Assembly (NCBI RefSeq): GCF_015706575.1
Contig: NW_024037060.1
Span: 2,792,515 to 2,856,514 of the forward strand
Direction: 5' to 3'
DNA from: Patiria miniata
Taxonomy: Eukaryota
DNA length: 64,000 nucleotides
The position numbers and the translations under genes were made by a program. Numbering within the stretch: the stretch's first letter is position 1; the number at the start of each line of letters is the position of its first letter. Below, in pieces: positions 1,312 to 64,000 of the stretch. The notes beneath the pieces are model-generated. The model did not search any database, was not told the origin of the DNA, and saw only the letters and a program-made list of their open reading frames with translations.

Positions 1312-1801
1312 CTACACAAGATCAAATCACCGATTTTTAGAGCAACTGTTTTTGTGCTTTGGATGTTCAACTGTTGTTGATGTGATCAACATGAGAAAGT
1401 TTGTACAATGATATGTAGCCTTGCAATTGACTCCCCACCTCAGATGAATTTCAAGAATCTGCTATAAGCACGAAACTGTGCTATTAGTGGGCGAGTACAG
1501 GATTGTTAATTACCTGCAGATTGCAAACTGCTTGTGACCTTGACAGGGGTCAGGGGTCATGGGTCAGGGTCATGTAATTATATATTTTTGTTTTAGAGCC
1601 AATTATTAATTGACAATGTCACTCTTTCCTCTGCTGTTATTTCTAAACAATGCAGATATCGAAAAAATGCTTTGAAAGATGACGAATCGATAACTGTTGT
1701 CAGGTTGCACAATTGATTGACATTTATTCGCAGCATGAATGGGGGGGGGGGGGGGAACCAGTAAAATAATTGAGACGGATATCCCCAAATCGGGACTATA
1801 C

Positions 1802-2158
1802 CCTCAAATGGTGACCTGCACAATTTAGACTCCTCCCCAGTCGTCGTCTCCGGGTAGCGGTCACAGAAGAAGTTCAGCTCCCTGCCGTCGTGGGCACCTG
1901 CGTAGGGGCCGCTGCACGCCACCTGCACCTCCTGGCAGAAGTCACTGCAGAGGTATCGCGGAGAACCGGACTTGGAGCACTCGGGGAAGAGATATGCGCA
2001 CAGAAACAGTTCAAGGTTCTCGTGGCAGTCCATGATGGCGCTGAAGTCCATGTAAAAATCGATGGCCTCCTCTGCTGTGCTGAAAATGTTGGGGTAAAAG
2101 GTCTGATTGTACGGGAGCAGGGACTGGCACTGGCTGGTCGATATGCTGGCACACTCGT
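1802..2158 (-). CDS. Exon encoding a Frizzled-type cysteine-rich domain (FZ/CRD): YECASISTSQCQSLLPYNQTFYPNIFSTAEEAIDFYMDFSAIMDCHENLELFLCAYLFPECSKSGSPRYLCSDFCQEVQVACSGPYAGAHDGRELNFFCDRYPETTTGEESKLCRSPFEG.
   Basis: The 10-Cys spacing and the conserved motifs (PYN.T, FLC..Y.P.C, PCR/LC..C) of FZ CRDs are seen in the minus-strand translation. The acceptor is ttttaag at 2160-2159. The only phase-compatible donor is G|GTATAG at 1801, which is weak, so the 3' boundary is less certain. Confidence 0.7.
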
Positions 2159-15800: not shown

Positions 15801-17995
15801 GAATTGTAACGTTATCCGGCTGTAGAGAGACCATATCATCATAGTGTTTTTTATCAGTCTTAGTCCTTAGCTCCAGCTGAAGTGATTCCTGCATAATATG
15901 TGAACCAAAGGGATTTCCCTCTCGACTATAAGCGAGGACCTATCAAATATTATTAAAGAGCAAAACCATAAGAGCCGGAATAGAATGTATTCAACGTGCC
16001 ATCTTCGCCCCTTGCTGCTCCATTGCTTGTCTTATAAGCCGTGGGGATATAAAATGGATAGAAAGTGCAGAGCTCTATGTCAGCTCGCCGTCCAATAACT
16101 CCTGACAGCTCTGCGGGTCCATTCGTCAATTTGGGTCCCAGGCTCCGGGAAATTATTACCCCCTAAAATAAATGGCAAATGTCGCGCAGATGAGTCCGTC
16201 AGCTGTTCGGGAACATTGCCAGCACATTTCAAAATCAGCTGGCTGGAAAAACAAAAATCCACCTGATATTAACAGATGTGCAAAAGGTAATTTAGAAAGG
16301 TGGTAGAAATGAGTTCTTCTCACGCTATTAACCATCTACCTGAGCTGTAAAGTCATCCGATTTTTAATGAATTCTTCGAATCAATGGAGCTGTGCTGTTG
16401 ACTCATTATACTCTAAGAATTAATTGTGGGTAGTGTTAGGTTGATTCAGGTTAAAGAGAGAGTAGATATGTAGAAACTTAAAGGATCCATGAAGTGATTT
16501 TTTCTTAGGAACACATATTGTGCACACTTCTACTCCTCTTAAAAACTAAAAGTGTACTTCTTTAAACACTTAAAATTATCCATGCTGTTCCGGACAACTG
16601 TGGGCGCTGTTGCTGTGATGTCATTTCAGGAAGACACTGTTCAGTTATGGGGTTTTCTGTTCAAATTGTGAACCCAAAAATTTGCTCATGACATTGAAAA
16701 CGTTTGTGAGAACTGCGATGTACTGACACTTCAACGAATCACCAAAGAAAAGAAAATTCACGACAGCAAAATATCCCAAATTCTGACAACTTTTGGTGCT
16801 GAAATAACTGTAACACAAAGGTTTCTGCCTGAAATGACATTACAGTTTTGCTCATGAATATGGAAATTTGCATTAGCATAAAAATCAAAATGGCACCCCA
16901 AAAACCTCGAAAATGGCAAAATGAAAATTGAAATAAGGTTACATGGGACATAAAGATGCATTTTCAAGGATTGTATTTAAAAAAATTAAATTGCAACATC
17001 TCCTTTATCTCAAGAAAACGTCGAAAACAGCCTGAATATAACAATAAAAGGAACGAGACCCGATTCCCGACAACATCTAAATTTCTTAGAAACAAAGATT
17101 CTACATGCGCCAATTCACAAAGCTTTTGTTTCTTCGATATTAAACGATAAAATGCGAAGCGCAAATACCCCACCACTCTTTAAGGAACCATCTGGTTTTA
17201 CAGCATCATAATCCTTACAAATTAAATTCCACATTTTAATACATATGTATTGAGTATTCAGTGAAATAAACTACCACGGTTATTTTCAGTAAGTCCAAAT
17301 AAAATAAGCCGTGAAGCATGCGGATTTCAAATTCCTGAGTCGGTGCACTTTATGATATTGCTTTCTGGCGAATAAAAATGAAATGAAAATGCCATACAAA
17401 GAGTTGTGTGTCTCTAAGTCTTGTGACAAGTAGGCCTCGTTAAACCATGTCAGATCTTTTTATGCCGATTTTTCATTGTCTACCTATATGTGTAAAAATC
17501 CATCAAAGTTGTCACAGTGGCATTCTAAAAGCATGGTGGAACAACAGTATTGTTGTTGTTGAAAGAGTTGGCAGACATTGAAGTAAACCGACTCGGTTTT
17601 TCAGACATTTTTGGAAGGCAAAAACGGTGGCAAAAACATCGCCTACAGATAAAAATCAACCAAGTGTATCCTCATGCGTTATCTCCTCTGAAAAAAACAA
17701 CCCACTTCTGTTTAATCATACGCTATAAAAGCGGGCTGGAGACCTTTCCATATCAAGTGAAAGCACATCTTGAAAAGCAGTTTCATCAAACTCCAATGAT
17801 CAGTCATCTATTTCTTGTGTGTCTCTTAATCTTATGGATTTTTTTTGGGGGGGGGGGCGGGGGGGGGCTACAGTTTCTAATTCATTCATTCATTCGTTAG
17901 ACAGGCATTTGCCCGTGTTCTCCTCCTCAAATTTTACACAGTTGGGATCACTGGCTCCGCTCCCACCACGGTGACTGCTCTATGTTCCGACACCC

Positions 17996-18112: not shown

Positions 18113-19265
18113 CACAACCCGTCAGTTCCTAAGCTCGATGTAATTCGTCTCACGCCACAAATCCGATATTCCCTTTGTAGTTCCACAAAAAACTGTAAAA
18201 GGTCCTCCTAGAAAAGATCCCAAGTGTCCATCTTGGGTCCCCATTTCAAAAATCCCAGCTACGACACTGCCCTACGATAGCAATGGGTCATATGGGCCTA
18301 TAAGGTCATGTTCAAGTGGTACGATTCTCTATAGTACACGAAAACCGTTGACATGGGACGCAGTATATGCAACATGGCGAACGGACAGGGTGAATATTGG
18401 CGGTCCAGCATACAAGCCCAGTTAGTTTATGGGGAAATTGTTTGACAATAAAACCCATTCCCTAGCCTAATACGTCTTTGTGCTTCACAGTGAGGATTAT
18501 TGTGCAAGTGGATTGCGTTAGTGAAAAAAACTACCGCCGGCAACAGGAAAAGCTTTTTGGACTTGGGTCAAATTTCTCTTGCTTTTCAGGCAACTTGCTT
18601 TTTTGACAGCAACGGGAAAGCACATGAGGGAAATGGTACAAGAATGAATGTAATCTTGAACAAGTGATCCAGATGTCCACGCCAGTGCCACGCATTTATA
18701 GTAATCATGATGCCAACTTCGTAATTTATAACCCCTAATTTTTGTTATTATTTCCCATAACCAAATTTCAATTCGTATGTTTTGCTTTAGCTAAAAAATT
18801 CCTTTGTTCCGATTTGGGGCGTCTGCAACCCTCTCAAAAGGGGTTTTTTCAGTTTGTGCACCAATAAGCCGCCTTGCAAGAGCCGATGCAGCCAATAATT
18901 TGAATTTTGTGAGGAAATAATTTAATAACTAAACGTCGGTGGAGTTTTTTCGTTCAATGTCTCATTCAGAAATGAATATCCTTTATATAGCCAGAAAAAT
19001 AGCAATGGAAAGAAAAAAATGTTTTTGAGGTGAAACTCGCAAAAATCAAGAGTCATCTTTAAAAAAAAATCCAAAAAAATATAAACAATATAAAAATAAA
19101 CAAACACATTTCCAAGCGTAAATATCTGTGAAAATTACGCTCCTGCCTATTATGGCTATTTCGTTTATGGATATTGCAAACCGTGCATTAGCATAACAAT
19201 GAGAATGTCGAACTGCCTACAAATGGCAATACAAGGATTACAAAGTAGAAGTAAATGAAACTTAA

Positions 19266-19637
19266 GGCCAAAAAAAAGAGTCTCCGGTTTCTGGTATGCG
19301 CGCGCGTCGCCGTAGCCATGCGCGTCGGCAAAATGAAAAAAAGGTTTTTTTTCAATGACAGATGATGTCTCAAAACCGCCAAACTCACTGGTTTGACTGG
19401 AATCCTGCTGCTGCACAATTTGAACGTGTTTTTAGATGGGGTTGTGATCGAGAATAAGCTTTATGTGGCCTCTCTGGACTCCCATATATTTGCACTAAAT
19501 TTAGTCGGGCACCATTTGCAGTCATCAGCCGACATTTGAAGCAAAAAAGTCCGGTAAAAAAAAAAAAAAAAGCCGCGTCGCCGCACCACTTTTTGGACAA
19601 GCTCCATACCAGAAACCGGAGACTTTTTTTTTTGGCC
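19266..19637. mobile_element. MITE of about 370 bp with 33-bp TIRs (GGCCAAAAAAAAGAGTCTCCGGTTTCTGGTATG). It belongs to the same family as the element at 44614-44954.
   Basis: The TIRs lie at 19266-19298 and 19605-19637. The flanks read cTTAA / TAAag. A GCGCGCGCGTCG internal block is shared with the second copy. Confidence 0.75.
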
Positions 19638-22600
19638 TAAAGTGAACTTTCAGGAATTAATACAGAAATTTATTCTATTAGGCCTACACCGCTTTATTGT
19701 ATTGTTAACGCAGTGCTCATTCTCGCGTTCAAATCCGGCTTTTCAAATTTCCACAATGTGATCTGGCCTTACTTTTCAGTTTTGCCCAAAAAAATGTTAC
19801 ATCTGAATACATTTGGCTGATTGTTGGTACCAATCACTTACATTCAGCTTTCCATTCATAAAAAAAATGCTTTCGAAATAAAGTGCATAGGCGGTTTCAT
19901 TTTCAAGTTCCATGTGGTAGTTGGAGCGAGGAAACGTGTCCCACATAGGGTGTCGAAACCGGAATTCCTCGGTTGTTGTACCGGTTTCGATACTCACTCA
20001 CTTGATTCCTAATCAACAATTTGCGATCAACAGACTGAATGCTAAGAACTGATCTTTTAATCTATGATGTGGCTTTTAACATGAACCAAATTTATCACAA
20101 AGTGAAGGTCGGGGGTTTTGGTCCCCGTTTTTTTCTCTTGCACAACGTTCATCAAATAATTATGATGAAATCAGTTGGTCTATTTAAGTCGCTAATGACA
20201 ACTAGAAAGCAGTCAGAGAGCGCAAACCTCCGCCAAGGCTAAACAATTCCCCGCCATATTGTCAGTAGACCCAAAAGAAATACTCGTATAAATGGTGAAG
20301 AATCCTTAAGAAATCCTGGATCCAGACCCAGATCCGGATCACTTCCAAAATCTAATCGATTTGTATAATTGTACCAAGGACCACCCCTAAAAATATTCAT
20401 TCGAATCTGTCCATTACCGTTTGAGTTATCTTGTTAACAGACAAACCAAGTACCAACCAACCAACCGACCAACAAAATCCGATGAAAACATAACCTCCTT
20501 GGCGGAGGTAATTACACTTGATACAATCGATACAGATTAATACATTTTTTGTAATACCGTCGAGAAGATTTAAGAAATATAACAATTCACATTCCAACTT
20601 AACAACTATAGTTGAGGTTGTTCAACCCCACATCCTTAACCTAGAAAACCAGTTTTGGATTCGCCGGTGTCAATCTTTAACGGTCATGAAGTCTTTATCC
20701 CTTTCTGTCTGATTTGCTTCACAAGAGCAAGCCACTTGAAGCACATCAGTCTCAAGGACAATGTACACATACAATTATTTTCACAGGTGTTTATGTGGAG
20801 ACTGGAGCAGCAGTCAATATTTCTAATTGCGGTTAAGTTCCCTGCTCATGGACACGTATAGGGCCTATGTACATTTGAGCTCGAACCACAATTCTCATGC
20901 ATGTTCTATAATGAACAGAACTTACCATAATTGCCCGACACTGCGAAAAGGATAAATCCGTTTGGTTCCAAACTGACTGATGATTAATTGTTCAAAGACA
21001 CACTTCAAGTTGACATGGTATAGTGAGCTCAGCGCAGTGCACTTGCTCTTGGATTGAAGATGTACACGTCAGAAGACCAAATTCAGAGAAGGAATGCCAA
21101 ATACACGAAAATTGAATACAAATTCACATGTATCATGTACAGTTGCGCCACATCCCTCGGGCGTAACCCCACAAAACCACAACCTTGTGGTGTTCAGAAA
21201 TTCATGTTCCGCCGCTGGGATGGAACGTACTTTGTATTTCCCCGAAAAAGGAAAAGAATCATCTCTTTGCGAATGGCTATGTGCTATACGCGCAATTTGT
21301 GGCTATGGCTATAGACTTGGCGTCAATCGACTGACAACCAAAAAGCCAAAATCCGAAGTCATAGACATCCAAATTAACCCACTTCATGAACATTTGTTAT
21401 GACGATATACTACAAACTACAATACATGTACTTCAAATGGGCATTCGTGGCTCCTGACCTCAGTGGCGCACCCGGGGGGGGGGGGGGGGGCCTCGGGGCG
21501 GGCTCGGGCTTGAGCCCCCCCCCCCAAGAGGTTGACTTTTTTTTTTTTTTTTGGTCCTACGATTTGGCCTTGGTGATATGAATGTGGCCTGTTTTCGAGT
21601 AGTATAATAGGGGTGTAAGAGGCGTCACCAAAGTCAAAATAGGCCGCCCCTCAAAAAAAAAAAAATTGTAAAAAAAAAAGTTGGCTGCTGCTTGAGACTG
21701 AACCTTTGTCTGGAATTCAATAACCATATGACATTGCGCCAGTCAAAACTGTTGATGGCTCGATTCGAAACACAATTTTTTTGGTGAGGATAAAATGACT
21801 GTTTGGGGGCACTGTGCGAATTCAGAACCACTAGTGTTTGTTTGCAAGGGTACAAACTTTGTTTAGTTATTTCAAGGGGGAATTGCAGAAATAGTTTCTG
21901 GAATGTTTTCGTTGGAAGCGAACATTTGACAAGACTGCATGTACAACAACAACCCAATGCATTTGTGCCTTGATGACAACTCCAGGTCTGTGCGAGTAGT
22001 CTTGCCCGGGAATGGCAAAAGTGTAACGACCTCAACTCTGTCAACGAGGTGAATTGAACTAACTCAGTCTCTGGTTCATGGGGGGAAAACCTCGCTTTAA
22101 ACAAGTGGAATTTCTGACTGTAAATTGTCGTGACGATTGGTCATGAATTGTCACGGCAAACTGCAATATTTATGAAAGTATGTTGATTGTGTCTTGTTTT
22201 GAGTAACCGACATTTGTAAGGATCATCTAGTCTTGTGCTTGATTAAGGGTCCAGAAGTGCCTGGAAGCTAGTACTTCAATTTTCAGCCTCACTCGATATA
22301 GGACTACATCTTATAGTCTTCGTATTAAAAAAAAATGTCATGGTGATTCGGTGGTTCTATAGTTCGGTTATACCAAAGTCACGAAAAGAAACCTTTCAGT
22401 CTCCTGAAGACGGCCAGAAGAGGCTGCCCAAATCGTTGGTAAGAACACTCCCCTGTCTTATCATATCTTCCACGAGCAATGAGCCCGTTACTTGCGACGC
22501 TGGCTACTATCTCGGTCGACCATAGCCCCCAGTTTTATGAATTTTGCATTGAACTGTATTGGTGGAAGCCTAGCGATCGCTGAAAAAATATTATTAACAT

Positions 22601-30224: not shown

Positions 30225-30860
30225 GACAGCCAGTACGCTGGCAAGCCAAACTACCAGGGGAGACAGCCAGTCAGTCAGTCAGGCAGCCAGCCAGCTAGCC
30301 AACCAGCCAGCCAGCAACCAACCAACCAGCCAGCCAGCCAGCCAGCCATGCATCCGGGGAGTCGGCTAGCCAGCCAGCCAGCCTGCCTGCCAGCCTGCTG
30401 CAAGCCAGTGAGCTAGCCACCGAACTGATGACCAACTCTTTACCAACTATACCAGCTAAGTCAGCTAGCCTGCGAGCTAGCCAATTACCAGCCAAAGTGT
30501 CACCCAGCAAGCAACCAATTAGCCAGCCAGCCAACAAACCAACCTTTCAGTTAGCCGCCAGGCAACCGGCCAACCAGCCTGCCAGTCTTAAAAAGCCCGA
30601 TTGTCATTATCAAGCCAACCATATAGCAAACCTGCCAACCAGTCATCCTCAAGCCAGCAGCCAGCCAACCAGCCGCCAAACCAGCGAGCAACAAGCCAAC
30701 AAGCCCGCTCACCAGCCAACGAGCCAGCCTTACGGTCAGCCAGCCAGCCAGCCTTCCAGCCAGCCTTCCAACAAGTCAGCGAGCCTGCCAATCAACCATA
30801 CCAGCCATCCAGCCAGCCAGTCGTCGTGCCATCCAGCCAGCAACCATCTGAACAACCAAC
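30225..30860. repeat. An imperfect tetranucleotide microsatellite (CCAG/CCAA)n of about 640 bp.
   Basis: The sequence shows continuous CCAGCCAGCCAACC-type periodicity. The supplied ORFs here, rich in P, A, S and Q, are repeat artefacts. Confidence 0.9.
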
Positions 30861-33486
30861 CCGCGGTGACCCAATACGCTTACATCACTAGAGTCGAACT
30901 TCTGGCCCGAGTAATGACAACATCATGATTGCAATTTAGGTTAATATCTAACCCACATAATCCTTGTCATCGTATTAATTGCTTTTGCAGTATTAACTGG
31001 ATCAGTTCTGATGTTATGGCCTTTGCTCCTGTCAGTGGAGTGGGGGAGATTGCAACGGGATGGTGATTTTAAAAGCAAAATCGGAAAGTTGAGTAATAGA
31101 AGCACAATCGGGACGGTGAAAATGGGTTAAATGGGACGAAGATTCGATTTTGCAACGGGCAAACTAAACCCTGGCCACGAGCCTGCTTTTATGTACTAAC
31201 CAAAGACAAGTGAGTTTTTTCCCTTCGATACTTCGATGTCGATATTCGGGATGTCAAAATGATTACTGTTCAGAAAAAAGAACAATGAATCGATTAGTTA
31301 AACCCCCCCCCCAAAAAAAAACACTGCCCAAAACTGTAGCAGTGGATTTTAGCAAAAGACGACACTTTTTTCGATATTCATGTCAGTACTGGTCAGACAT
31401 AAATTAGAAATAAACTACGGTTCATAGGCCCTTTGCAATTAGCGGGGGGGGGGGGATAGCAAATTGTATAAGGACAATAACCAATTGTAGATAAAACAAA
31501 ACAATTAGTTAGTTGTAAAAAAAAACGCTAATAACCTTCGGTCCAAATGGTTTAATAAGCTTCTGTAGATATTAAATATGCAGAAAACATCAAATTCATT
31601 ACCAACCCCAAACATTAACAGTACGTACTGCTCCATACAGCTCTTACACTTCAATAAATCAGGAACAAATCCTGGTTCCAAAAGAATTTTTTTAAATGTG
31701 GTTAAAACACTGAACACTTGCGTGTTAAAACAGAAACTGTTGATTTTGGGCCGCGCTGAGCATTTTAGTTGACACAGCTGAAATTTAGTTCTTAGGAAAA
31801 CACAGGTTAAGGGCGCACAGTGAGGAACATCGAGTGGGATTACATAGTTGGCAGACATCAATGTCCAAGGAACATTCTAAGTGCTCAGTAGGACTATGTC
31901 AATTAGCTTGTAAATTCGCATTTGATTGCTGTCTTCAGGGTTCCACTGTCCTCATTAATTCATTTCTCGCGGAAAGATAACAACTTAATCTTTCTTGAAA
32001 GGATAATCTTACCGATGCTCAGGGAAAGCTTGGGCAAGGTGTATGTCTGTATAAGGCCTTCCTGCATGCAGTGATCATAGGTTTTTGCACGACGTGGTTG
32101 ACTGAACTTTCATATTGTCATTATGTCTAAACTGTACTACATGTATTTCATTAATACGGCATCGAGGTGATGATGATGATCATGGTGTGGATGATAGTGA
32201 TAACGGGGATTGTTTTGTGTGATTGGAAAGCGCGCACAATTTTTCGATCAGGATGATCACGAAAGAGATGATGTACGGTCGCCCATTTTTGGAAGTGATT
32301 TCGGCGGGTTGGAAGATTTGGGGCGTCTTGTCTAATCTTAATTCAATGTGAATTTGTCGTTTTTTTCTTGACTGATTTGCCCTTGACAATATTATTGTCA
32401 GTCTTTTCGAATAGGCAGTAAATCTATGGAACGCCTCCTGATTTAAATTCCGGTTCCAAGCACACTCAATTAATTATCAGCAAAATAACACTCGGTGTCC
32501 ATGTTGAAAGTGAATTATCTCCATAAAAATTAGTGAGTCGTTTCGTGAACTAATTGGCCAAAGCCGCGTTGTGGGTAATTAACGACGAGCCACAATTAAT
32601 CTGCCATTCTTTTATAGTGAGTGTAAACTCTCGGGAAAAACAACGAGCAATTAATTTATATAGAATGTCATTTCCGAAGATGAGTGTTAGGTAGATTTTT
32701 TTCAAAATCCTCCTTTTTCCCCACAATATCCTGGACTATATCAACTGGATTATTATCCTACTGGACACCATCTATCAATGAGGGCGCTATTCAAAACCGA
32801 ATTCATGGTCATTGACTGACAATCGCTGTACACGTTCCATCCAAGGGACATCAACAATAAACAGCCAATCGCGAAAAACAAGGTTTTTGCCACAAGTAAA
32901 TTAGTGTGGGATTAGTTTAACATAAAGTGTTTTTTTTTAATTTTTAATCATGGTTTCGTTATTTTCTGTGATTGCCAAATTTCCAGTGGGGGCGACTGAG
33001 GGGAGGGGGGGGGGGGGGGGCGACCATTTTTTTTTTTATGGGGGTGCCCCCCCCCCCGGCCCCCCGTAGCTACACTGCTGTTATACCCATAGCCCAATTT
33101 GATGACATCATCGTGTTTCACAGGTCACCGTACAAATAGATACCGTGTTTAAAATGTTGTTGTGATAGCGCCCGTTTGAAAGTCAAAAGGAAGAAAGGAA
33201 CTCCAGGCTAAGAAGAAATTGACGTAATTGTAATTCCCAAGGTTCACGGTTGTCTGCTCTTTAATATTGAGTCCAGTTAATTTGCCGAAACTCGTTTTAG
33301 GATATTATTGGCCATGGACATTAAAGGAAAACTAGTCGTTTTGTTTTGAGATCGAATAGAGGAAATTCAAATTGGCACTGAAGCCGACTGAAGCGGAGCG
33401 GGCTTCAGTGCCGTCTTTCGTAAAGAGGATTAAACAAAAAACAAAAAAAAGGTCTTCAATAAAACTTTGAGCACTGAGAGTCTCGG

Positions 33487-42430: not shown

Positions 42431-42840
42431 GTAAGCAACTGATTTTTTTTTATGTAGTATTATGTTACACTAAATGAGGAGAATTACTGAAAAATAAATC
42501 TTGCAGATGAAATGGTTGGATTGCAAACATATTTTTGGACGGTTTCTGGCTTGTCGTGCATTTGACATTCTCCCGGCCAGCTACTGCCAAAATCAGTTGA
42601 ATTCCAACAACTTGGATTGATGGTACAAAAGAGATCCAGTTTTTAAATTAATTGTTGCAAATTTTTTTTCAAAATTTTATTTGCTTTGTAAAATTTGTGA
42701 AAAAAAACTCTTTGCGTCTGTGATGGTTCAGTTATTCACTCACTGCAAAGCAAAGGCACTTTGTGAGATTCAATTCAGATAGACCACAAAAGGAACACTG
42801 ACTGTGTGCATTATAATTTTGAAAGTTGAACAAAGAAATT

Positions 42841-42917
42841 GACTGGAGTGGGGTTTGAACCTGTGACCTCTGGATTGCCGTTTCGTTGCTCTACCAACTG
42901 AGCTATCCAGCCCTAAT
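42841..42917 (-). repeat. A tRNA-derived element. On the minus strand it reads GGGCTGGATAGCTCAGTTGGTAGAGCA…GGTTCAAACCCC. It is probably a SINE head or a pseudo-tRNA rather than a functional tRNA.
   Basis: A and B box-like D-arm (TAGCTCAGTTGGTAGAGC) and T-arm (GGTTCAAAC) are present. The anticodon and T stems do not pair, and the acceptor 3' strand is mismatched. Confidence 0.45.
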
Positions 42918-53575: not shown

Positions 53576-54801
53576 TTAATTTTTAGTTTTAATGTTCTGA
53601 TAATGTTTCTCGTTAGGGGTGGCATTTCCTTCTTTTTGTCCAACGTTCTCGTTCGCCACGACATCAGTATACTCACCTCCTTTGGTTCCCAAGATCGTCT
53701 GGTAGACGGCCTCGCCTGTTGTGTCTTTCGTTGTTGGTGTCAGATCAGTGTAGTCGGCTTCCGAGTGCAGCTCGGTGTCTTTGGCTGTCGGGTCGGTTGT
53801 CTTGGAGCTCCTGCGCCGCCGCAGTCTGGTGATCAGGAAGACAATGACAAGGAGTGAGACGATGAGGATGAGGAGCACCACACTGACGACGATCCACGCC
53901 ACGGGAGGTGCACCGGTACCAGGACCGTCGGTCATCAGCAGGGGGAGTTGCCGGCCGGTTGTCGGTTGTGGGGGAGGTTGGCGTGGGGTTGTCACAACAG
54001 CGGGTTGTGGAATGGTTGCCGGTCGTGTTTCCTCAGTAGTAAAGGGAAGCTTGATTGATGCCCCCACGGTCGTCGTACTCAGCACACGCAGCGGGCCGAT
54101 CGTGCAGGAACTCTCCCGACCAGGAAAGGATGACGCCGAAGTCACCTTGCACACGAAAGTGGCGTCCTGGTGGTCGGCAGTCACAGACAGCTCTGACGAG
54201 ATCACACGTTCATTCTCATCTCCCGAGTGTCTCCACTGCACATTGACGGTTGATGTGATGACGTCTACCCGCACTAGCGGAGAACCGGGGTCTGTAGTGC
54301 AATTCATCGGGAGAGTTGTCCCTTGCTGAACGGTGTAGCTTCCATCAGGGGCACAGATCGGGTAGGGATCGGCCGGAAAGTAGCGCACTGTCAGATAAGG
54401 AACGCCCCGCCCCGTCACTCGACTGCGATTCTGCCAGATTTCACAGTTAAACAATCGGTCATCTCTAGTGACGTTTGTGATGATGAGGACACCGACTGCC
54501 AAATCGGATGGGTAATACTCAAGATAGTTTCATATCGTGGGTTTAGACTGACGCCGTTCATCGTTAGAGGTTGCCAGTTGAATCCCCCTTCGTTTCTGTG
54601 CCAATTAATAGTGTAATCATAACCGGCCATAAGTCCGGATGCGTTGCATGCGAGGATAACCGTGTCTCCCTCGGTCGGCTGTGCGTCGGCCGGTCGATCC
54701 ACCGCAGTGGATAACACCACTTGTGAACCAACTTTGTGGGAACACCAACATGCGCATAGCAGCAGCAGGAACGTTGACTTGGATGTCAATCTGTGATCCA
54801 T
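53576..54801 (-). CDS. Intronless Ig-superfamily type I membrane receptor-like gene. It encodes a signal peptide (MDHRLTSKSTFLLLLCACWCSHKVGS), a V-set Ig domain, a C2/I-set Ig domain, a Pro/Thr-rich stalk, a TM helix (VAWIVVSVVLLILIVSLLVIVFLI) and a cytoplasmic tail with four Tyr motifs (DYTDL, VYQTIL, EYTDV, HYQNI). The reading frame is broken by an apparent 1-nt deletion near 54525-54535 inside the V domain, which makes this either a pseudogene or an assembly error.
   Basis: The ATG at 54801-54799 sits in a gaaaATGG context. Frame A (MDHR…NPRYE) and frame B (YLEYYPSDLAVGVLIITNVTRDDRLFNCEIW… to a stop at 53576) together give a canonical V domain (C…W…D..LFNC). Frame A alone terminates at about 54415. 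Frame B has no usable start. No spliced solution exists because the two frames abut. Confidence 0.6.
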
Positions 54802-54886
54802 TTTCGATCGTTCCCCTGTCAAAATTTGTCCCAAACGAGCTAGCTGTCCAGATAATGTTTGCAGAGAATGTGAGGAGTCGAACTTG

Positions 54887-54904
54887 CTTATACATGTAAA
54901 TATA
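54887..54904 (-). promoter_or_regulatory. Candidate TATA elements for the Ig-like gene. On the minus strand they read TGTATAAG and TATATTTA, about 90-105 nt upstream of the ATG.
   Basis: This is only an AT-rich TATA-like motif in a plausible position. There is no other support. Confidence 0.2.
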
Positions 54905-56808
54905 CTCACACCGTGAAGCTTGCAATTAAATTTTGGTAAGGAATGTGTATTATTATTGGAATAATAGGAATAATGCCTCGATCGGATCTATATTGAACTT
55001 TCATTTTTGGTGTTCATGCAGATACCTTTTTTTTTTTTTTATCGTGCGCCACACTCGGGTGGTTTTGTGTAGAACAACGGCGCAATTTCCGTCATTCTGA
55101 TATTCTACGGAGGGAAATGCTGATTGCTTTTGGGGGAAGAATTTGGGGGAATTGACGAGAATTACCAAAGCCCTTTAACAGAGCCGCATGAAAGGCATGG
55201 TTCCCGGAATGCGGAACCGGCGTATGCCGAGGGCCTCAGTGCTGTATTTTGTTGAGAGGAATTGAAAAAAAAGATCATCAATTCATACAATGGCTTAGCA
55301 CTGAAAGCCTCGGTTTCAGTGTAATTTGGGATTTGTCTATTCTAGAGTTCGGTTTAGGTTTTGAAGTTTCCTTACATTTTGGGCCCGTGAGCAGTACCAC
55401 CTAATTTTCTCTATCTATCTTGTTCAAAAACGGACCGTCTCGTGTGCCATTTATTGCGTTTTGATGTTCAAATTTCCATCTTCACAATACAAGTCAATTT
55501 TCAACCATAAACAAAACCATCAAATTTTACCAAAGTAGACGCCTCCGAAACAAGGCGAGGACGCGTCGAAGGCAACGGTGACTTTGTTTGCTTATTAGTT
55601 TGACAGATGACCTGAGTAGTACTGCTGACGGACGTGGTGAAACTAGTGCTCTCTTGTCCTTTTGTGTTTTTCCTGGGAAACTGAACAGGATACACAAAAT
55701 CATTGTACTTTTAGTCCATTGTGATCTTACTTGCACGCCAATATATAGCGATGTTTTCTGAAAACTGGCGTCAGCTCGATCACCACTAACAATGCAAGTT
55801 GTTCAATGGCGCCACTGGGGAAATATGGAAATTATTGTGTGTGGTATGCAGGCTAATAACAGTTACCCATCCTTGGTCTATGCATTTCTCCATGAGATGA
55901 AAAGCAGCGCGCAGGAACTATCGATCATCAAGTTTTTCAAAACACCGTGTTGCGCAAAAGGAGGAACTGTCGGATCATTGATACATGTTTGTAGGCCTAC
56001 ACATTTAAAAGTGTAGGCCTACTTTGCTATATCCTGACAGGGCACTATGTCCAATGTGTTTTTTTTTAGACAAGAATTACCCCCAAACGTATATAAAATA
56101 ATTATTTTGTTTTGCATTTGGTTATTTTAACCCATTGACAAGCTACCAGGTAAAGTACATCACACCCCCCCCCTAAGAAAAAGGGGGAGAAGAAGAGGAA
56201 GGAGAAAAAGAAATTAATTTTAAAGTCGAAGCTTGTACACCATGGATGTTTAGACCAATCCTTCAATTCAAGGGCAAAAGCATTGTGCTAGCTATTGTTC
56301 AGATAATCTGTCATGGGCAGTTGCTTTGTACAATAACGAGCACGGTTTCTCCATTGAAGGGGGCCTCCGTCTAGAACAAGCTCCTTCTTTGTTTTGCTCG
56401 TTAATGTACAATTGTTAAAGGAAAAAGGGCGCTGAAAGGTGTTCAGAAAATGTCAACAGGGAGGCCGAAAATGAAGCTCACTTTTAATATCACTTGACCA
56501 AACAAGTAGACAATGCCAAAGTTAATTTAAAAAAAGTTATCATCGCATGATCCTTTTACTAAACCGCCGACAGAGGGCGTGTTTTATCTAGGCCGTATTC
56601 ACTCATGTTGTTTATACTCATTGTACTTATAGAGCTCTGTGTGGTAAATCCCTTCCTCTTATTTATTTTATTTTATAAGGTGCACTGAATGAGCTTTTGA
56701 GTCATGTAATTTTCATGAATGTTTGGCATGTTTCGGTTTATTTGATGACAGTTTGAAGGCCCTGACTTCGTCATATTTAACGGGGTAGACGGTGTAAGAT
56801 TGTAGACT

Positions 56809-56910
56809 ATGCCACTGCGGGTTATTCAAGGCACATTGGTGCATGCACAGTCTGCAAACCAGCCACTCCAGATTTTGGAGAATAACGTTATTGGAGTCGA
56901 CAAAAACAAG
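56809..56910 (+). CDS. GDA: Guanine deaminase coding exon 1: MPLRVIQGTLVHAQSANQPLQILENNVIGVDKNK.
   Basis: The sequence aligns to the vertebrate GDA N-terminus (MPPLAHIFRGTFVHSTW…LLGVSDSGK). The donor is GTGAGA. Confidence 0.8.
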
Positions 56911-58487: not shown

Positions 58488-58573
58488 ATAATATTCGTTG
58501 AACCTGTGGAGTGTTTATCTGAACTCTCTGCCCAGCATGGCTTTGAACTGGACGAAGTCCACAACATCAACGG
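58488..58573 (+). CDS. GDA: GDA exon 2: IIFVEPVECLSELSAQHGFELDEVHNING.
   Basis: The acceptor is tttctag and the donor is GTAAGG. The sequence aligns to GDA IVFLEEASQQEKLAKEW…ELSHHE. Confidence 0.8.
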
Positions 58574-58842: not shown

Positions 58843-59014
58843 TTGTTTCTTGATGCCTGGTTTTGTCGACACCCACATCCATGCCCCTCAGTATGTCTAC
58901 ACCGGCACAGCCATGGGCCTACCCCTCCTGGAGTGGCTAGACAAGTACACCTTCCCCGTCGAAGCCAAGTTTGACGATCTCAAATTCGCCACCGATGCTT
59001 ATCACAAAGTTGTG
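58843..59014 (+). CDS. GDA: GDA exon 3: (G)CFLMPGFVDTHIHAPQYVYTGTAMGLPLLEWLDKYTFPVEAKFDDLKFATDAYHKVV. It carries the HxH metal-binding motif.
   Basis: The match to GDA is near-identical over FMPGLVDTHIHASQY…LPLLEWL.KYTFP.E. The acceptor is tatttcag and the donor is GTGAGT. Confidence 0.9.
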
Positions 59015-60268: not shown

Positions 60269-60356
60269 CACCGTACCCTTAAGAACGGAACCACCACAGC
60301 CTCCTACTTTGCAACCATTCACAAAGAGGCCTCCCTCAAGCTTGCAGAGATAGCCG
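60269..60356 (+). CDS. GDA: GDA exon 4: HRTLKNGTTTASYFATIHKEASLKLAEIA.
   Basis: The sequence matches GDA RRTLKNGTTTACYFATIH. The acceptor is atttctag and the donor is GTGAGT. Confidence 0.9.
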
Positions 60357-60823: not shown

Positions 60824-60926
60824 CAAAGTTTGGGCAACGAGCATTCATCGGCAAGGTGAACATGGATTCAAATTCACCCGATTTCTACGTTGAGACCACA
60901 GAGAATTCAATCCAAGACACGGAGTG
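60824..60926 (+). CDS. GDA: GDA exon 5: (A)KFGQRAFIGKVNMDSNSPDFYVETTENSIQDTE(W).
   Basis: The sequence matches GDA DKFGQRAFVGKVCMD…YKETTEESIKETE. The acceptor is cacattcag and the donor is GTAAGC. Confidence 0.85.
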
Positions 60927-61639: not shown

Positions 61640-61775
61640 GTTTATCAAGCAAGTTCAGTCGATGAACAACCCTCTTGTCACACCCATCGTGACGCCCCGT
61701 TTCGCCGTCAGTTGCACCTTGGAACTCATGAAGAAACTGGCTGAGCTTGCTGAAAAGTACAACCTGCCAATTCAG
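61640..61775 (+). CDS. GDA: GDA exon 6: (W)FIKQVQSMNNPLVTPIVTPRFAVSCTLELMKKLAELAEKYNLPIQ.
   Basis: The sequence matches GDA RFVSEMLQKNYSRVKPIVTPRFSLSCSETLM.EL…HIQ. The acceptor is gagaaaag and the donor is GTAGTC. Confidence 0.85.
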
Positions 61776-62970
61776 GTAGTCCGTCAGTCCCCTGTTATTC
61801 CCTGAGTTTTTGCTTTTTCTTGGCAACAGCAAAGGGCTAAACTGCAACACTGCTGTTGTATTGCCGCCCAAGACCCAGAACTACGACTTTGAAAGATGGG
61901 GGGACTGTTGTTGTTAGAGCACCATCAGTGTTCCAAAAGTTACAGGCTTAATTTCCATTTAAGTGATTATCTTTGTAGAAATGCAAAAAATAGACGAACA
62001 GGTTATTCTTTTCAGTTTCTGCTTCAGTTTTAGCTGGACCCAAAGGTTAAGATAATAATTGTTGAGTCAGGTGTTAATGGGAATATACATCATTTGCTTT
62101 TGCTGTAATTTTCAGAAATGGATGGAATTGGGGAGTTGGAAATATATAGCAAATACAGTTACACTGACTTTTTTGAGGTTTTGGGTTCAAAAATGCTATA
62201 AAAACCAAGAAAAACAATCATTTTCCTGTAGTCTGGTTCCCTGACTCCATTTAAGAAGAAACAGAGCAGTTTACATACATTGGGGAATTGTAAGGTCAGG
62301 GAACCAGTCTAGCATGCTTCTACCCGTTCATAGGTGTGTAATCGATTGCAAACAAGTGCGATGGTCAACTGGGGCCAGTATTTGAAAAAAAAGCCAGTTT
62401 TTTCCAACGCTGGTCTGCCGATCAGCGTTGGAAATTGATACAAAAATACCACTTTTCTTGAAAATGACAGTATACCAGGTGCCATGATTTTACAGGATGC
62501 TTTACACTGTCATTCACTAACAGTCCAGCAAGGTATTTCAAAATGATTTGGTAGTTTTATTTTTTGATGTTTGCAAATGTTGTATTTTCCCTTTAATGTT
62601 AAGCCTAACCCCCAAAGGGCTGGTTGGGGGTCAAGTACCAAATACCACAGAATACTACATGTGCTGTGCACACTTGTATGGAAAGAAATTAATACTACAG
62701 GTTACTACTCAATGGTATTTTGTAGCATTGGGGGCTGTTAGGGTTAAGTGACAAGTCCTTCCCTTCGTAATACCGGACTGAAATTCCTTTCGTTCATTTT
62801 TTTCAGCATTTTTGTGCAAAGCTATCAAAAGAAGGTTGGTTACTGTGTGAGCTGGCTTTTGTTTATAAGAGCTCGGTTGATAGCTTTCACATCGTGATTG
62901 TTGAAGTACATCGCCGGCATGCATTTCTTGAAATATATCTATGGAGGCTAGATTTCTTTCCTTTTACTAG

Positions 62971-63078
62971 ACTCATCTCGATGAAAACGAGGGGGAAATC
63001 GCGTTGGTGAAGGAACTTTTCCCTCAATTTTCCAGCTACGCTAATGTCTACAGGGCTTGCGGCTTACTGACAAATCGG
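62971..63078 (+). CDS. GDA: GDA exon 7A: THLDENEGEIALVKELFPQFSSYANVYRACGLLTNR. It carries the HxxE catalytic motif. The exon is phase 0-0 and 108 nt long.
   Basis: The sequence aligns to GDA SHISENRDEVEAVKNLYPSYKNYTSVYDKNNLLTNK. The acceptor is cttttactag and the donor is GTAATT. Confidence 0.85.
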
Positions 63079-63176
63079 GTAATTATTTGAACAAGTTTGA
63101 CATTAGTCTGATTTCTTTTATTGTATTTTAATTCTTTCTTCGGCCTCTCCCTATTAACTCTCCCCCACATTATTAG

Positions 63177-63272
63177 ACCCATCTGGGAGAAATCCTTGCT
63201 CGACCTCAGGTTTACCCGCAATACAAGAGTTACATGGATGTGTACAGTGCATGCAATTTGCTCACGACGCAG
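63177..63272 (+). CDS. GDA: GDA exon 7B, a tandem paralogue of exon 7A: THLGEILARPQVYPQYKSYMDVYSACNLLTTQ. It is phase 0-0, 96 nt long, and lies 98 nt downstream of 7A.
   Basis: It matches the same GDA protein segment as 7A, with HxxE retained and the PQ(F/Y).SY…VY.AC.LLT core conserved. It has its own acceptor cattattag and its own donor GTAAAA. This candidate is either a mutually exclusive alternative exon or a decaying duplicate. Confidence 0.55.
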
Positions 63273-64000
63273 GTAAAACGTCCAGCGATACCGATAAAAC
63301 AAATACTGACCTTTCGTTTTTTTAACTTACCCAACTTTCTTTGCTGCATGATGTTACCCCACCTCTTCAGAGCTAAAAACATGCACGTGGGCCTAACTCT
63401 CGCACACACGAGAGGCTTTTTAGATATAATTTGGCTGTGCAATCAGTTCACCAGGAACAAGCATGGTAGATAATGTGCTTTTCCTTTAACCACACTCCTC
63501 AATCCTCCACAAAATCTTCCAGGCAGTTTTGGAGGATTGAGGCAGTGGTCATCCCTCCACTGATTAAATTCACGAAACAAAGAATGATTTTGGAGGATTG
63601 AGGCTAAAGCTGTTTTTTACATGGTGGCAATTGGAGGATTTTGCAGGATTTTTTGGTGGTTCCCAACCAAAAGGGCCTTACTCCAAAGTAAACTTAACTG
63701 TAGACTAAAATTTGCTGTTAAACTACTTAGCATTTGTTAGTGTTTATTCATACGACCCATTTGGTCATTCGAATGAACACTAGCATTTGCTTTTACTGCT
63801 AATGGTTTAGCATTTGCTCGCATCTGTATGAATAAAAATGAAGGAAACCCTTTTACTGAAAAGAATTTGCACAAAAAAAAACTGAACCTTTTGCTTATTT
63901 TACTTTTTGAATCTTAGCTATTAGAATTTGCTTTATTTCGTATAAATAAAAAACATGCGTTGCAATTGCTGTTTGTTGAAACTTCCCAGCATTTGCAAAT

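What the first reader, a model, noticed from the sequence alone, without database searches (positions are those of the whole stretch)
62971..63272. Tandemly duplicated homologous exons in guanine deaminase, a candidate for mutually exclusive splicing
Two adjacent phase-0 exons, 7A (108 nt) and 7B (96 nt, 98 nt downstream), both encode the same GDA segment. That segment contains the catalytic HxxE motif (THLDENEGE… versus THLGE…). The two exons share the PQ(F/Y).SY..VY.AC.LLT core but have diverged strongly at the DNA level, and each keeps intact splice sites. Including both would insert a 32-aa internal repeat into an alpha/beta-barrel amidohydrolase. The likeliest options are therefore mutually exclusive use, which would give two isozymes differing around the proton-shuttle Glu, or one copy being a dying duplicate. 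Vertebrate GDA has a single exon here.
Basis: partly seen in the sequence, partly recalled or inferred. Interest (0 to 1): 0.7.

Follow-up and report, generated by a model that had tools for sequence, protein, structure and literature searches.

The report
Sea-star guanine deaminase alternative exon pair
The bat star's guanine deaminase gene carries two tandem copies of the exon encoding its catalytic His-x-x-Glu loop, and public RefSeq models already use them one at a time, so this is a real but fairly ordinary case of mutually exclusive splicing.

Summary
The window is Patiria miniata (bat star). Its guanine deaminase gene runs from 56809 off the window end. Exons 7A (62971-63078) and 7B (63177-63272) are homologous, phase-0, GT-AG copies separated by a 98-nt intron.

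The mutually exclusive reading is supported. RefSeq isoforms X1 and X3 contain E6-7A-E8. Isoform X2 contains E6-7B-E8. X1 and X2 differ only by this swap, and no isoform has both exons.

Acanthaster planci has an orthologous 7B, again exactly 98 nt after 7A, with an intact frame and splice sites. Between the two species 7B shows saturated synonymous change (pS 0.79) but few replacements (pN 0.24), the same as 7A. The 98-nt intron is only 37% identical. So 7B is a selected coding exon, not a dying copy.

Asterias, a brittle star, a sea urchin, a crinoid and a teleost each have a single exon here, so among these genomes the pair is seen only in the two valvatid sea stars.

7B keeps the zinc-binding His and a Glu at His+3. 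It lacks four residues, including one of two Glu invariant in 75 homologues, and the following helix is predicted to shrink.

How exclusivity is enforced is unresolved, and direct read evidence was not available. This is a new member of a known kind and of moderate-to-low interest.

The parts
56809..56910 (+). GDA exon 1 (start codon; MPLRVIQGTLVHAQSANQPLQILENNVIGVDKNK)
   Evidence: tblastn and splice reconstruction. The translation is identical to the N-terminus of P. miniata XP_038058164-7.
58488..58573 (+). GDA exon 2
58843..59014 (+). GDA exon 3 (HxH zinc motif, PGFVDTHIHAPQ)
60269..60356 (+). GDA exon 4
60824..60926 (+). GDA exon 5
61640..61775 (+). GDA exon 6. It ends ...KYNLPIQ|gtagtc and is the shared upstream exon for 7A and 7B.
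61776..62970 (+). Intron 6 (1195 nt)
   Evidence: No block is conserved with A. planci.
62971..63078 (+). Exon 7A, 108 nt, the canonical version (H231-L-D-E234-N-E-G-E238). It is used in RefSeq isoforms X1 and X3.
   Evidence: It matches the family pattern H..E...E found in 160 of 165 homologues.
63079..63176 (+). 98-nt intron between 7A and 7B. It is by far the shortest intron of the gene, is pyrimidine-rich from about +34, and has the same length in A. planci.
63177..63272 (+). Exon 7B, 96 nt, the divergent version (H-L-G-E, four residues shorter, with an RPQVYPQ motif). It is used in RefSeq isoform X2.
   Evidence: The orthologue in A. planci is at L003:16621-16716. Purifying selection was shown.
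63273..64000 (+). First 728 nt of the intron between 7B and exon 8. Exon 8 lies beyond the window.
   Evidence: No exon 8 hit in the window.
63497..63603 (+). Local inverted and direct repeats (CCTCAATCCTCCAC, and TTGGAGGATTGAGG twice) in the downstream intron. Whether they belong to the splicing control is not established.
   Evidence: Not conserved near exon 7 in A. planci.

Best explanation
Exons 7A and 7B of the Patiria miniata guanine deaminase gene are the products of a tandem exon duplication. It happened before the Patiria and Acanthaster lineages split.

Each exon encodes the same structural unit of the (beta/alpha)8 amidohydrolase barrel:
- the end of strand beta5 with the zinc-binding His;
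- the His-x-x-Glu catalytic loop;
- the two short helices that lead to strand beta6.

The pre-mRNA includes one or the other, joining E6-7A-E8 or E6-7B-E8. This gives two proteins that are identical except for this cassette.

7A gives the canonical enzyme. 7B keeps the His and a Glu at His+3, but it has lost four residues, including one Glu of the invariant E-x-x-x-E pair. It also carries its own conserved RPQVYPQ motif. I infer that this reshapes the loop holding the substrate-protonating Glu and yields an isozyme with altered kinetics or specificity.

**Shown:** homology, intact exon anatomy, alternative use in RefSeq models, conservation and purifying selection of 7B, and a retained overall fold in a model.

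**Inferred:** that RNA reads support the models, that the 7B protein is active, and how exclusivity is enforced. For enforcement my best guess, at roughly 40%, is spacing or steric constraint from the short, length-conserved 98-nt intron. Otherwise it would be trans-acting splicing factors acting on the weak donors.
For: **Identity of the gene.** My E1-E6+7A and E1-E6+7B translations are exact prefixes of XP_038058164/7 and XP_038058166 respectively. X1 minus 7A equals X2 minus 7B.

**Homology.** 7A and 7B are homologous (score 81, 0 of 20,000 shuffles reach it).

**Orthologue in A. planci.** 7B lies at L003:16621-16716 and encodes THLGEIASRPQVYPQFKSFTGVYKTCRLFKSQ, with ag|..|gt sites, no stop, the same 4-codon deletion, and again 98 nt after 7A.

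**Selection on 7B between the two species.**
- pS is 0.79 against pN 0.24 (7A: 0.85 against 0.25). Fisher P = 2e-5.
- Randomly placing the 35 differences never gives 20 or more of 32 identical residues (0 of 50,000).
- The intervening intron is only 37% identical, and nothing else in the flanking introns aligns.

**Single exon elsewhere.** Asterias rubens, Amphiura filiformis, Lytechinus variegatus, Anneissia japonica and Betta splendens each have one exon here.

**Structure.**
- The 7A isoform aligns end to end with human GDA 2UZ9/4AQL (E 3e-139).
- The AlphaFold model of the 7B isoform superposes on 4AQL at 1.4 A over 425 columns.
- In 7B the helix after the catalytic loop shrinks from 236-245 to 238-241, and local pLDDT drops to 73 against 96.

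**Catalytic role.** The Glu protonates the substrate in GDA (PMC12828455).

**Splice-site strength.** Donors of E6, 7A and 7B lack the +5 G that E1-E5 all have, as expected for regulated exons.
Against: - No RNA-seq or Iso-seq reads could be inspected. The isoforms are Gnomon models. That such variants require transcript support is my own knowledge of the NCBI pipeline, not something I checked.
- 7B is modelled only in combination with an alternative C-terminus that lacks the conserved DDRNIxEVYV end and is predicted disordered. The 7B transcript class could therefore be partly non-productive.
- A. planci RefSeq isoforms use only 7A.
- The C-terminal half of A. planci 7B (CRLFKSQ) departs from the conserved GLLT motif.
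- 7B lacks a Glu that is invariant in 75 homologues, so activity is uncertain.
- No enforcement mechanism was demonstrated. Both exons are multiples of 3, so no frameshift or NMD check operates. The donors are U2-type. There is no excess RNA complementarity over shuffles. P. miniata has a conventional branch-point candidate 19 nt from the 7B acceptor, which would allow 7A-7B splicing.
Confidence: 0.8

Rival explanations
1. 7B is a non-functional pseudo-exon, a decaying duplicate. The X2 isoform would reflect splicing noise or an annotation artefact, and only 7A matters.
For: - 7B lacks four residues, including a Glu invariant in 75 homologues.
- Local model confidence is lower.
- A. planci RefSeq has no 7B isoform.
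- X2 carries an aberrant-looking C-terminus.
Against: - The frame, both splice sites, the deletion and a 7B-specific motif (THLGEI..RPQVYPQ.KS) are retained in two families of sea stars.
- Synonymous sites and introns between those species are saturated.
- pN (0.24) is far below pS (0.79), equal to 7A. 0 of 50,000 random placements of the differences reach the observed amino-acid identity.
Confidence: 0.07
2. 7B is a selected coding exon, but its product is catalytically impaired. It would act as a regulatory or dominant-negative subunit of the dimeric enzyme, or in a non-catalytic role, rather than as a second active isozyme.
For: - Loss of one Glu of the invariant E-x-x-x-E pair.
- A proline is introduced into the helix that follows the catalytic loop.
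- That helix is predicted to shrink to 4 residues, with pLDDT 73.
- Pairing with a C-terminus that lacks the last conserved strands.
Against: - The zinc-binding His, a Glu at His+3, and all other catalytic residues encoded outside exon 7 are retained.
- The overall fold is retained in the model.
- A few homologues annotated as deaminases or amidohydrolases also lack the second Glu (P0066, P0069, P0073, P0105).
- Dimer poisoning is speculation.
Confidence: 0.15
3. Both exons are spliced in together in a significant fraction of mRNAs, so this is tandem inclusion rather than mutual exclusion.
For: - Both lengths are multiples of 3, so joint inclusion stays in frame.
- A 98-nt intron is long enough to be spliced in principle.
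- P. miniata has a conventional branch-point candidate (attaAct) 19 nt from the 7B acceptor.
Against: - None of the four RefSeq proteins contains both exons.
- Joint inclusion would duplicate strand beta5's His and the following helices inside a (beta/alpha)8 barrel.
- The intron length is held at exactly 98 nt in two species despite 37% identity, which suggests constrained spacing.
Confidence: 0.04

Closest known systems
Tandem-duplicated mutually exclusive exons as catalogued by Pillmann et al. 2011 and Hatje et al. 2017 (PMC5740500)
   Same: Adjacent homologous exons with the same phase, a length difference within 20 aa, GT-AG sites and no in-frame stop, encoding the same structural element. 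Alternative inclusion appears in the transcript models.
   Different: The pair is lineage-specific (valvatid sea stars) and lies in a gene not reported to have MXEs; a search for 'guanine deaminase' with 'mutually exclusive' found no relevant paper. None of the three simple enforcement mechanisms listed in that paper (U2/U12 incompatibility, donor to branch-point distance under 50 nt, frameshift/NMD) is demonstrated here. Two of them are excluded.
Pyruvate kinase PKM exons 9/10 and ketohexokinase KHK exons 3A/3C (from my own knowledge)
   Same: Metabolic enzymes in which one cassette of a barrel or domain is swapped by mutually exclusive exons, giving isozymes with different kinetic or regulatory behaviour.
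   Different: Those cassettes alter allosteric or substrate-affinity regions and are vertebrate-wide with well-studied regulators. Here the cassette contains the metal-binding His and the catalytic Glu themselves. No biochemical data exist for it.
ATE1 exons 7a/7b (PMC7797038)
   Same: A two-member MXE cluster in an enzyme gene.
   Different: ATE1 exclusivity rests on conserved competing intronic RNA structures. Here no conserved intronic block and no excess complementarity over shuffles was found.
Alpha-tropomyosin exons 2/3, steric hindrance by branch-point position (Smith and Nadal-Ginard 1989, from my own knowledge)
   Same: A short intron between the alternative exons, with a long pyrimidine-rich stretch. 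A possible distal branch point (tgAca at +22/+23 from the 7A donor) is shared by both sea stars.
   Different: The branch point is unmapped. P. miniata also has a conventional candidate at -19, so steric exclusion is only a hypothesis.
Guanine deaminase of the amidohydrolase superfamily, subtype III (human GDA/cypin, PDB 2UZ9 and 4AQL)
   Same: The 7A isoform aligns over its full length (E 3e-139). HxH, His231, Glu234, His270 and Asp321 are conserved.
   Different: The 7B isoform lacks 4 residues and one invariant Glu after the HxxE motif. All other genomes checked have a single exon here.

Membership tests
Mutually exclusive exon (MXE) cluster from tandem exon duplication | Neighbouring exons of one gene with significant sequence homology | tested here: met
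   The exons are 98 nt apart. BLOSUM62 score is 81, reached by 0 of 20,000 shuffles. Both hit GDA residues 239-275.
Mutually exclusive exon (MXE) cluster from tandem exon duplication | Same reading frame and phase, similar length (within 20 aa), GT-AG sites, no in-frame stop | tested here: met
   108 and 96 nt, both phase 0-0, ag|..|gt.
Mutually exclusive exon (MXE) cluster from tandem exon duplication | Transcripts contain exactly one member, never both or none | tested here: inconclusive
   RefSeq models X1 and X3 have 7A only, X2 has 7B only, and none has both or neither. These are models. No reads were inspected, and A. planci has 7A-only models.
Mutually exclusive exon (MXE) cluster from tandem exon duplication | Both members maintained by selection as coding sequence | tested here: met
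   The 7B orthologue in A. planci has pN 0.24 against pS 0.79, P = 2e-5, with the flanking introns unalignable.
MXE enforcement: frameshift/NMD | Joint inclusion or joint skipping shifts the frame | tested here: not met
   108 and 96 are both multiples of 3.
MXE enforcement: U2/U12 incompatibility | One donor of U12 type (/GTATCCTT or /ATATCCTT) | tested here: not met
   The donors are gtagtc, gtaatt and gtaaaa.
MXE enforcement: steric hindrance | Branch point of the downstream exon less than about 50 nt from the upstream donor | tested here: inconclusive
   The intron is 98 nt in both species. A shared candidate tgAca lies at +22/+23. In A. planci there is no yUnAy candidate nearer than 50 nt to the acceptor, but P. 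miniata also has attaAct at -19. Branch points are not mapped.
MXE enforcement: competing RNA structures (docking and selector sites) | Conserved or statistically unusual complementarity between intronic sites flanking the exons | tested here: not met
   No conserved intronic block. Best duplexes are no better than dinucleotide shuffles. The local repeat at 63497-63603 is not conserved.
Guanine deaminase (amidohydrolase superfamily subtype III) | Full-length homology to solved GDAs and the Amidohydro_1 domain | tested here: met
   E 3.4e-139 to 2UZ9/4AQL. PF01979 is on the RefSeq proteins. The 7B model is 1.4 A from 4AQL.
Guanine deaminase (amidohydrolase superfamily subtype III) | Catalytic set: HxH, His after beta5, Glu of HxxE, bridging His, Asp | tested here: met
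   H74, H76, H231, E234, H270 and D321 are invariant columns in the 7A isoform. In 7B, H231, E234, H266 and D317 fall in the same invariant columns.
Guanine deaminase (amidohydrolase superfamily subtype III) | Second Glu four residues after the catalytic Glu (E-x-x-x-E), invariant in 75 aligned homologues | tested here: not met
   Present in 7A (E238) and absent in 7B. This applies to the 7B isoform only. 5 of 165 homologues also lack it.
Guanine deaminase (amidohydrolase superfamily subtype III) | Guanine deaminase activity of either isoform | not testable with these tools
   Needs an enzyme assay.

The most novel reading that the evidence does not exclude
The 7B cassette is a sea-star innovation in which a one-turn (4-residue) deletion slid the second conserved Glu into the His+3 position. 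This would create a differently tuned active-site loop, so that one gene makes two deaminases with different substrate preference or kinetics (for example guanine versus another aminopurine or pterin), switched by splicing. Exclusivity would be enforced by the length-conserved 98-nt intron through steric constraint.
Probability: 0.2. Interest if true: 0.5.

Novelty: new member of a known kind. Interest (0 to 1): 0.33.

Why it matters
It adds a clean, datable example of tandem exon duplication creating a mutually exclusive pair. The pair is present in two valvatid sea-star families and absent from a forcipulatid, a brittle star, an urchin, a crinoid and a teleost.

Unusually, the swapped cassette contains the metal-binding His and the catalytic Glu of an amidohydrolase rather than a peripheral or allosteric segment. 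If the 7B protein is active, it would be a natural experiment on how much the loop after the HxxE motif can be remodelled.

Practically, the pair is already captured in RefSeq isoforms. The gain here is the evolutionary evidence that 7B is selected, not its discovery.

Tried and rejected
**Protein searches.**
- The first search, with a 200-aa query, returned only proteins of 350 aa or less and missed the species' own protein. The tool seems to limit hit length relative to query length.
- The 45-aa 7B query found 'no candidate'. For the same reason that result says nothing about absence.
- A 297-aa query solved it.

**Locus look-ups.**
- The Acropora digitifera locus (L002) has an assembly gap exactly where exon 7 should be, so it is uninformative.
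- The Oculina protein and the P. miniata isoforms X1 and X2 are not on record for locus retrieval. The rest of the P. miniata gene could not be read.

'7B is really the next segment' is rejected. X2 continues with TVLAHCIYL after 7B.

**Enforcement mechanisms.** Frameshift/NMD and U12 incompatibility are rejected.

**Competing RNA structures.**
- There is no conserved intronic element.
- Inverted repeats are not shared between the species.
- Duplex energies are no better than dinucleotide shuffles.
- The TTGGAGGATTGAGG repeats pair best with each other. Exon 7A ranks only third as a partner, and the repeats are not conserved in A. planci.

**Other.**
- Rfam found nothing relevant.
- A literature search for a described GDA MXE found nothing relevant.
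- A search for the assembly GCA_014845345 found nothing.
- Gene conversion as the source of the selection signal is rejected. 7B-specific features are shared across species, while 7A and 7B stay distinct within each.

Full report
**1. What is in the sequence**

The window is eukaryotic DNA with a GC content of about 0.40. It starts at 56809 and runs off the window end.

I reconstructed six upstream exons with GT-AG introns: 56809-56910, 58488-58573, 58843-59014, 60269-60356, 60824-60926 and 61640-61775. Together they give an open 229-aa frame.

Both are phase 0 and flanked by ag|...|gt. They lie 98 nt apart and encode:
- 7A: THLDENEGEIALVKELFPQFSSYANVYRACGLLTNR
- 7B: THLGEILARPQVYPQYKSYMDVYSACNLLTTQ

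Both align to human GDA residues 239-275. Their mutual similarity is far beyond chance: the local score is 81, reached by 0 of 20,000 shuffles. DNA identity is only 55%.

**2. Whose gene it is, and what is already annotated**

A 297-aa query (E1-E6+7A+7B) hit 'guanine deaminase-like isoform X2 [Patiria miniata]' (XP_038058166.1, 511 aa) as the best match. Its 90% cluster also holds isoform X1 (XP_038058164.1 and XP_038058165.1, 515 aa) and isoform X3 (XP_038058167.1, 444 aa).

- My E1-E6+7A translation is an exact prefix of X1 and X3.
- E1-E6+7B is an exact prefix of X2.
- In all three the next residues are TVLAHCIYLDDD.
- X1 with 7A removed equals X2 with 7B removed.
- No isoform has both exons.

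The window is therefore from the bat star. The public RefSeq models already treat 7A and 7B as mutually exclusive.

From my own knowledge of the NCBI pipeline, Gnomon reports alternative variants only when transcript or RNA-seq alignments support them. I could not inspect that evidence.

One caveat: X1 and X2 share an alternative C-terminus (from residue 424) that replaces the conserved DDRNIQEVYVAG end. X3 has the canonical end but carries 7A. So 7B is modelled only with the odd C-terminus.

**3. Is 7B a live exon or a dying copy?**

I retrieved orthologous loci.

Acanthaster planci (L003) has 7A at 16415-16522. It also has an orthologue of 7B at 16621-16716, encoding THLGEIASRPQVYPQFKSFTGVYKTCRLFKSQ. 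This copy has ag|..|gt sites, no stop codon and the same four-codon deletion, and it again lies exactly 98 nt after 7A.

Comparison between the two species:

| Feature | 7B | 7A |
|---|---|---|
| DNA identity | 64% | 62% |
| pS | 0.79 (saturated) | 0.85 |
| pN | 0.24 | 0.25 |

- The excess of synonymous over non-synonymous change in 7B is significant (Fisher P = 2e-5).
- Random placement of the 35 observed differences never reaches the observed 20 of 32 identical residues (0 of 50,000).
- The 98-nt intron is 37% identical without gaps.
- Nothing else in the flanking introns aligns.

7B also has its own conserved motif (THLGEI..RPQVYPQ.KS), distinct from 7A. The two 7B copies score higher with each other (114) than with any 7A (48-81). 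This excludes gene conversion as the source of the signal. It also places the duplication before the Patiria-Acanthaster split. The 'dying duplicate' option is therefore not supported.

**4. Distribution**

The following have a single 108-nt exon here and no 7B-like sequence between exons 6 and 8:
- Asterias rubens (Forcipulatida, L004)
- the brittle star Amphiura filiformis (L005)
- the urchin Lytechinus variegatus (L006)
- the crinoid Anneissia japonica (L008)
- the teleost Betta splendens (L007)

The Acropora locus has an assembly gap at this spot.

The pair is thus seen only in the two valvatid sea stars. Whether that reflects a gain in that lineage or a loss in Asterias cannot be decided with these genomes.

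**5. What the cassette encodes**

The 7A isoform aligns over its full length with human GDA (2UZ9/4AQL, E 3.4e-139).

In a 75-sequence alignment, H231, E234 and E238 of exon 7A are invariant. 160 of 165 homologues show H..E...E. According to PMC12828455, the Glu of this loop receives the proton shuttled from Asp via His. It then protonates the substrate.

In the AlphaFold model of the 7A isoform (mean pLDDT 96.8), exon 7 runs as follows:
- the end of strand beta5 (228-232);
- the catalytic loop;
- helices 236-245 and 252-259;
- the loop before beta6 (266-270).

The best 7A/7B alignment is THL----GEI. The deletion therefore removed 'DENE', and the second Glu now sits at His+3, so H-x-x-E is regenerated. 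The E-x-x-x-E pair is lost and a Pro enters the former helix.

In the 7B-isoform model:
- the helix shrinks to 238-241;
- local pLDDT falls to 73;
- the alternative C-terminus is disordered;
- the rest superposes on 4AQL at 1.4 A over 425 columns.

The lower confidence may simply reflect that no other aligned sequence has this variant. I infer an isozyme with a remodelled catalytic loop. Whether it is active, differently specific or impaired cannot be told here.

**6. How exclusivity might be enforced**

- **Frameshift/NMD** is excluded, because both lengths are multiples of 3.
- **U12 incompatibility** is excluded, because the donors are gtagtc, gtaatt and gtaaaa.
- **Competing RNA structures** find no support. 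There is no conserved intronic block, no shared inverted repeats, and duplex energies are no better than dinucleotide shuffles. A local repeat (63497-63603) pairs best with itself and is not conserved.

What remains is suggestive only:
- The 98-nt intron is by far the shortest of the gene; the others are 269-1577 nt.
- Its length is identical in two species despite sequence saturation.
- It is pyrimidine-rich from about +34.
- Both species share a tgAca candidate branch point at +22/+23.
- A. planci has no yUnAy candidate closer than 50 nt to the acceptor.
- P. miniata, however, also has a conventional candidate at -19.

Hatje et al. (PMC5740500) list a donor to branch-point distance under 50 nt as one recognised mechanism. 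They note that most MXE clusters are controlled by other, unknown means.

The donors of E6, 7A and 7B all lack the +5 G present in E1-E5. This fits regulated splice sites.

**7. Comparison with what is known, and verdict**

This meets the structural criteria for a tandem-duplication MXE cluster: adjacency, homology, same phase, similar length and intact sites. Model-level evidence shows one-at-a-time use, and comparative evidence shows that both members are selected.

It works like PKM 9/10 or KHK 3A/3C, where cassette swaps in metabolic enzymes give isozymes (my own knowledge). It differs in that the cassette holds the catalytic His and Glu themselves.

I found no paper describing an MXE in GDA, but the isoforms are in RefSeq. 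The case is a new member of a known kind. It is real, tidy and of moderate-to-low interest.

The open points are read-level confirmation, the activity of the 7B protein, its linkage to the alternative C-terminus, and the mechanism of exclusivity.

Noticed in passing
window 63497-63603 (also 63631-63650): A cluster of short repeats sits in the intron after 7B. CCTCAATCCTCCAC lies at 63497-63510, and two perfect copies of its complement TTGGAGGATTGAGG lie at 63529-63542 and 63590-63603, forming a strong local hairpin (-24.8 kcal/mol for the best pair). Exon 7A (63017-63040) is the third-best partner in the 2.2-kb region (-19.9). The cluster is not conserved near exon 7 in A. planci.
   Followed up: partly
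beyond the window end; proteins P0240 (X1) and P0121 (X2), from residue 424: RefSeq isoforms X1 and X2 replace the conserved C-terminus (DDRNIQEVYVAGKKVIPTEEG) by an unrelated tail of about 90 aa (KFASLNFGEKQAKTYNWYSCDL...) that is predicted disordered. This is an alternative 3' exon or a retained intron. 7B is modelled only with this tail.
   Followed up: partly
window 63079-63176 and L003:16523-16620: The intron between 7A and 7B is exactly 98 nt in both P. miniata and A. planci, although only 37% of positions match. This suggests selection on spacing.
   Followed up: partly
window donors at 61776, 63079, 63273 versus 56911, 58574, 59015, 60357, 60927: The donors of E6, 7A and 7B lack G at +5 (gtagtc, gtaatt, gtaaaa). 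All five upstream constitutive donors have it.
   Followed up: no
L001 (GCA_014845345.1, contig JACSEG010025163.1) 600-1040: This is an Asterias-like GDA fragment in which exons 1-4 are contiguous, with no introns, before a gt intron. In Asterias rubens and P. miniata these exons are separated by introns. It is either intron loss or a partial retrocopy in an unidentified forcipulatid-like assembly.
   Followed up: partly
L005 (Amphiura filiformis) 21285-21386 and 21696-21764: Part of GDA exon 8 (DDEVSLIKERGAGVAHCPCSNFT) occurs twice, about 400 nt apart, with 100% amino-acid identity. It is either a very recent partial exon duplication or an assembly artefact.
   Followed up: no
window 1593-2051 (-): An ORF with a Frizzled cysteine-rich (Fz) domain (PF01392, E 3.8e-10). 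It is probably an exon of a neighbouring Fz-domain gene.
   Followed up: no
window 53576-54909 (-): Two long overlapping-frame ORFs encode an extracellular-looking region, a transmembrane segment and a cytoplasmic tail. No Pfam hit is above threshold. This is likely a single-pass membrane protein gene upstream of GDA.
   Followed up: no
window 30428-30928 (+): A low-complexity ORF rich in P/T/S/Q repeats (PT repeat, PF04886, E 5e-6). It may be a simple repeat rather than a gene.
   Followed up: no
window 42840-42912 (-): Rfam tRNA hit at 30 bits, against a gathering score of 29. ARAGORN does not call it. It is probably a tRNA-derived repeat or pseudogene.
   Followed up: partly
L002 (Acropora digitifera) 19181-19765: The RefSeq A. 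digitifera GDA model (P0011) skips the catalytic exon because an assembly gap sits right after exon 6. The truncated-looking protein is an artefact.
   Followed up: yes
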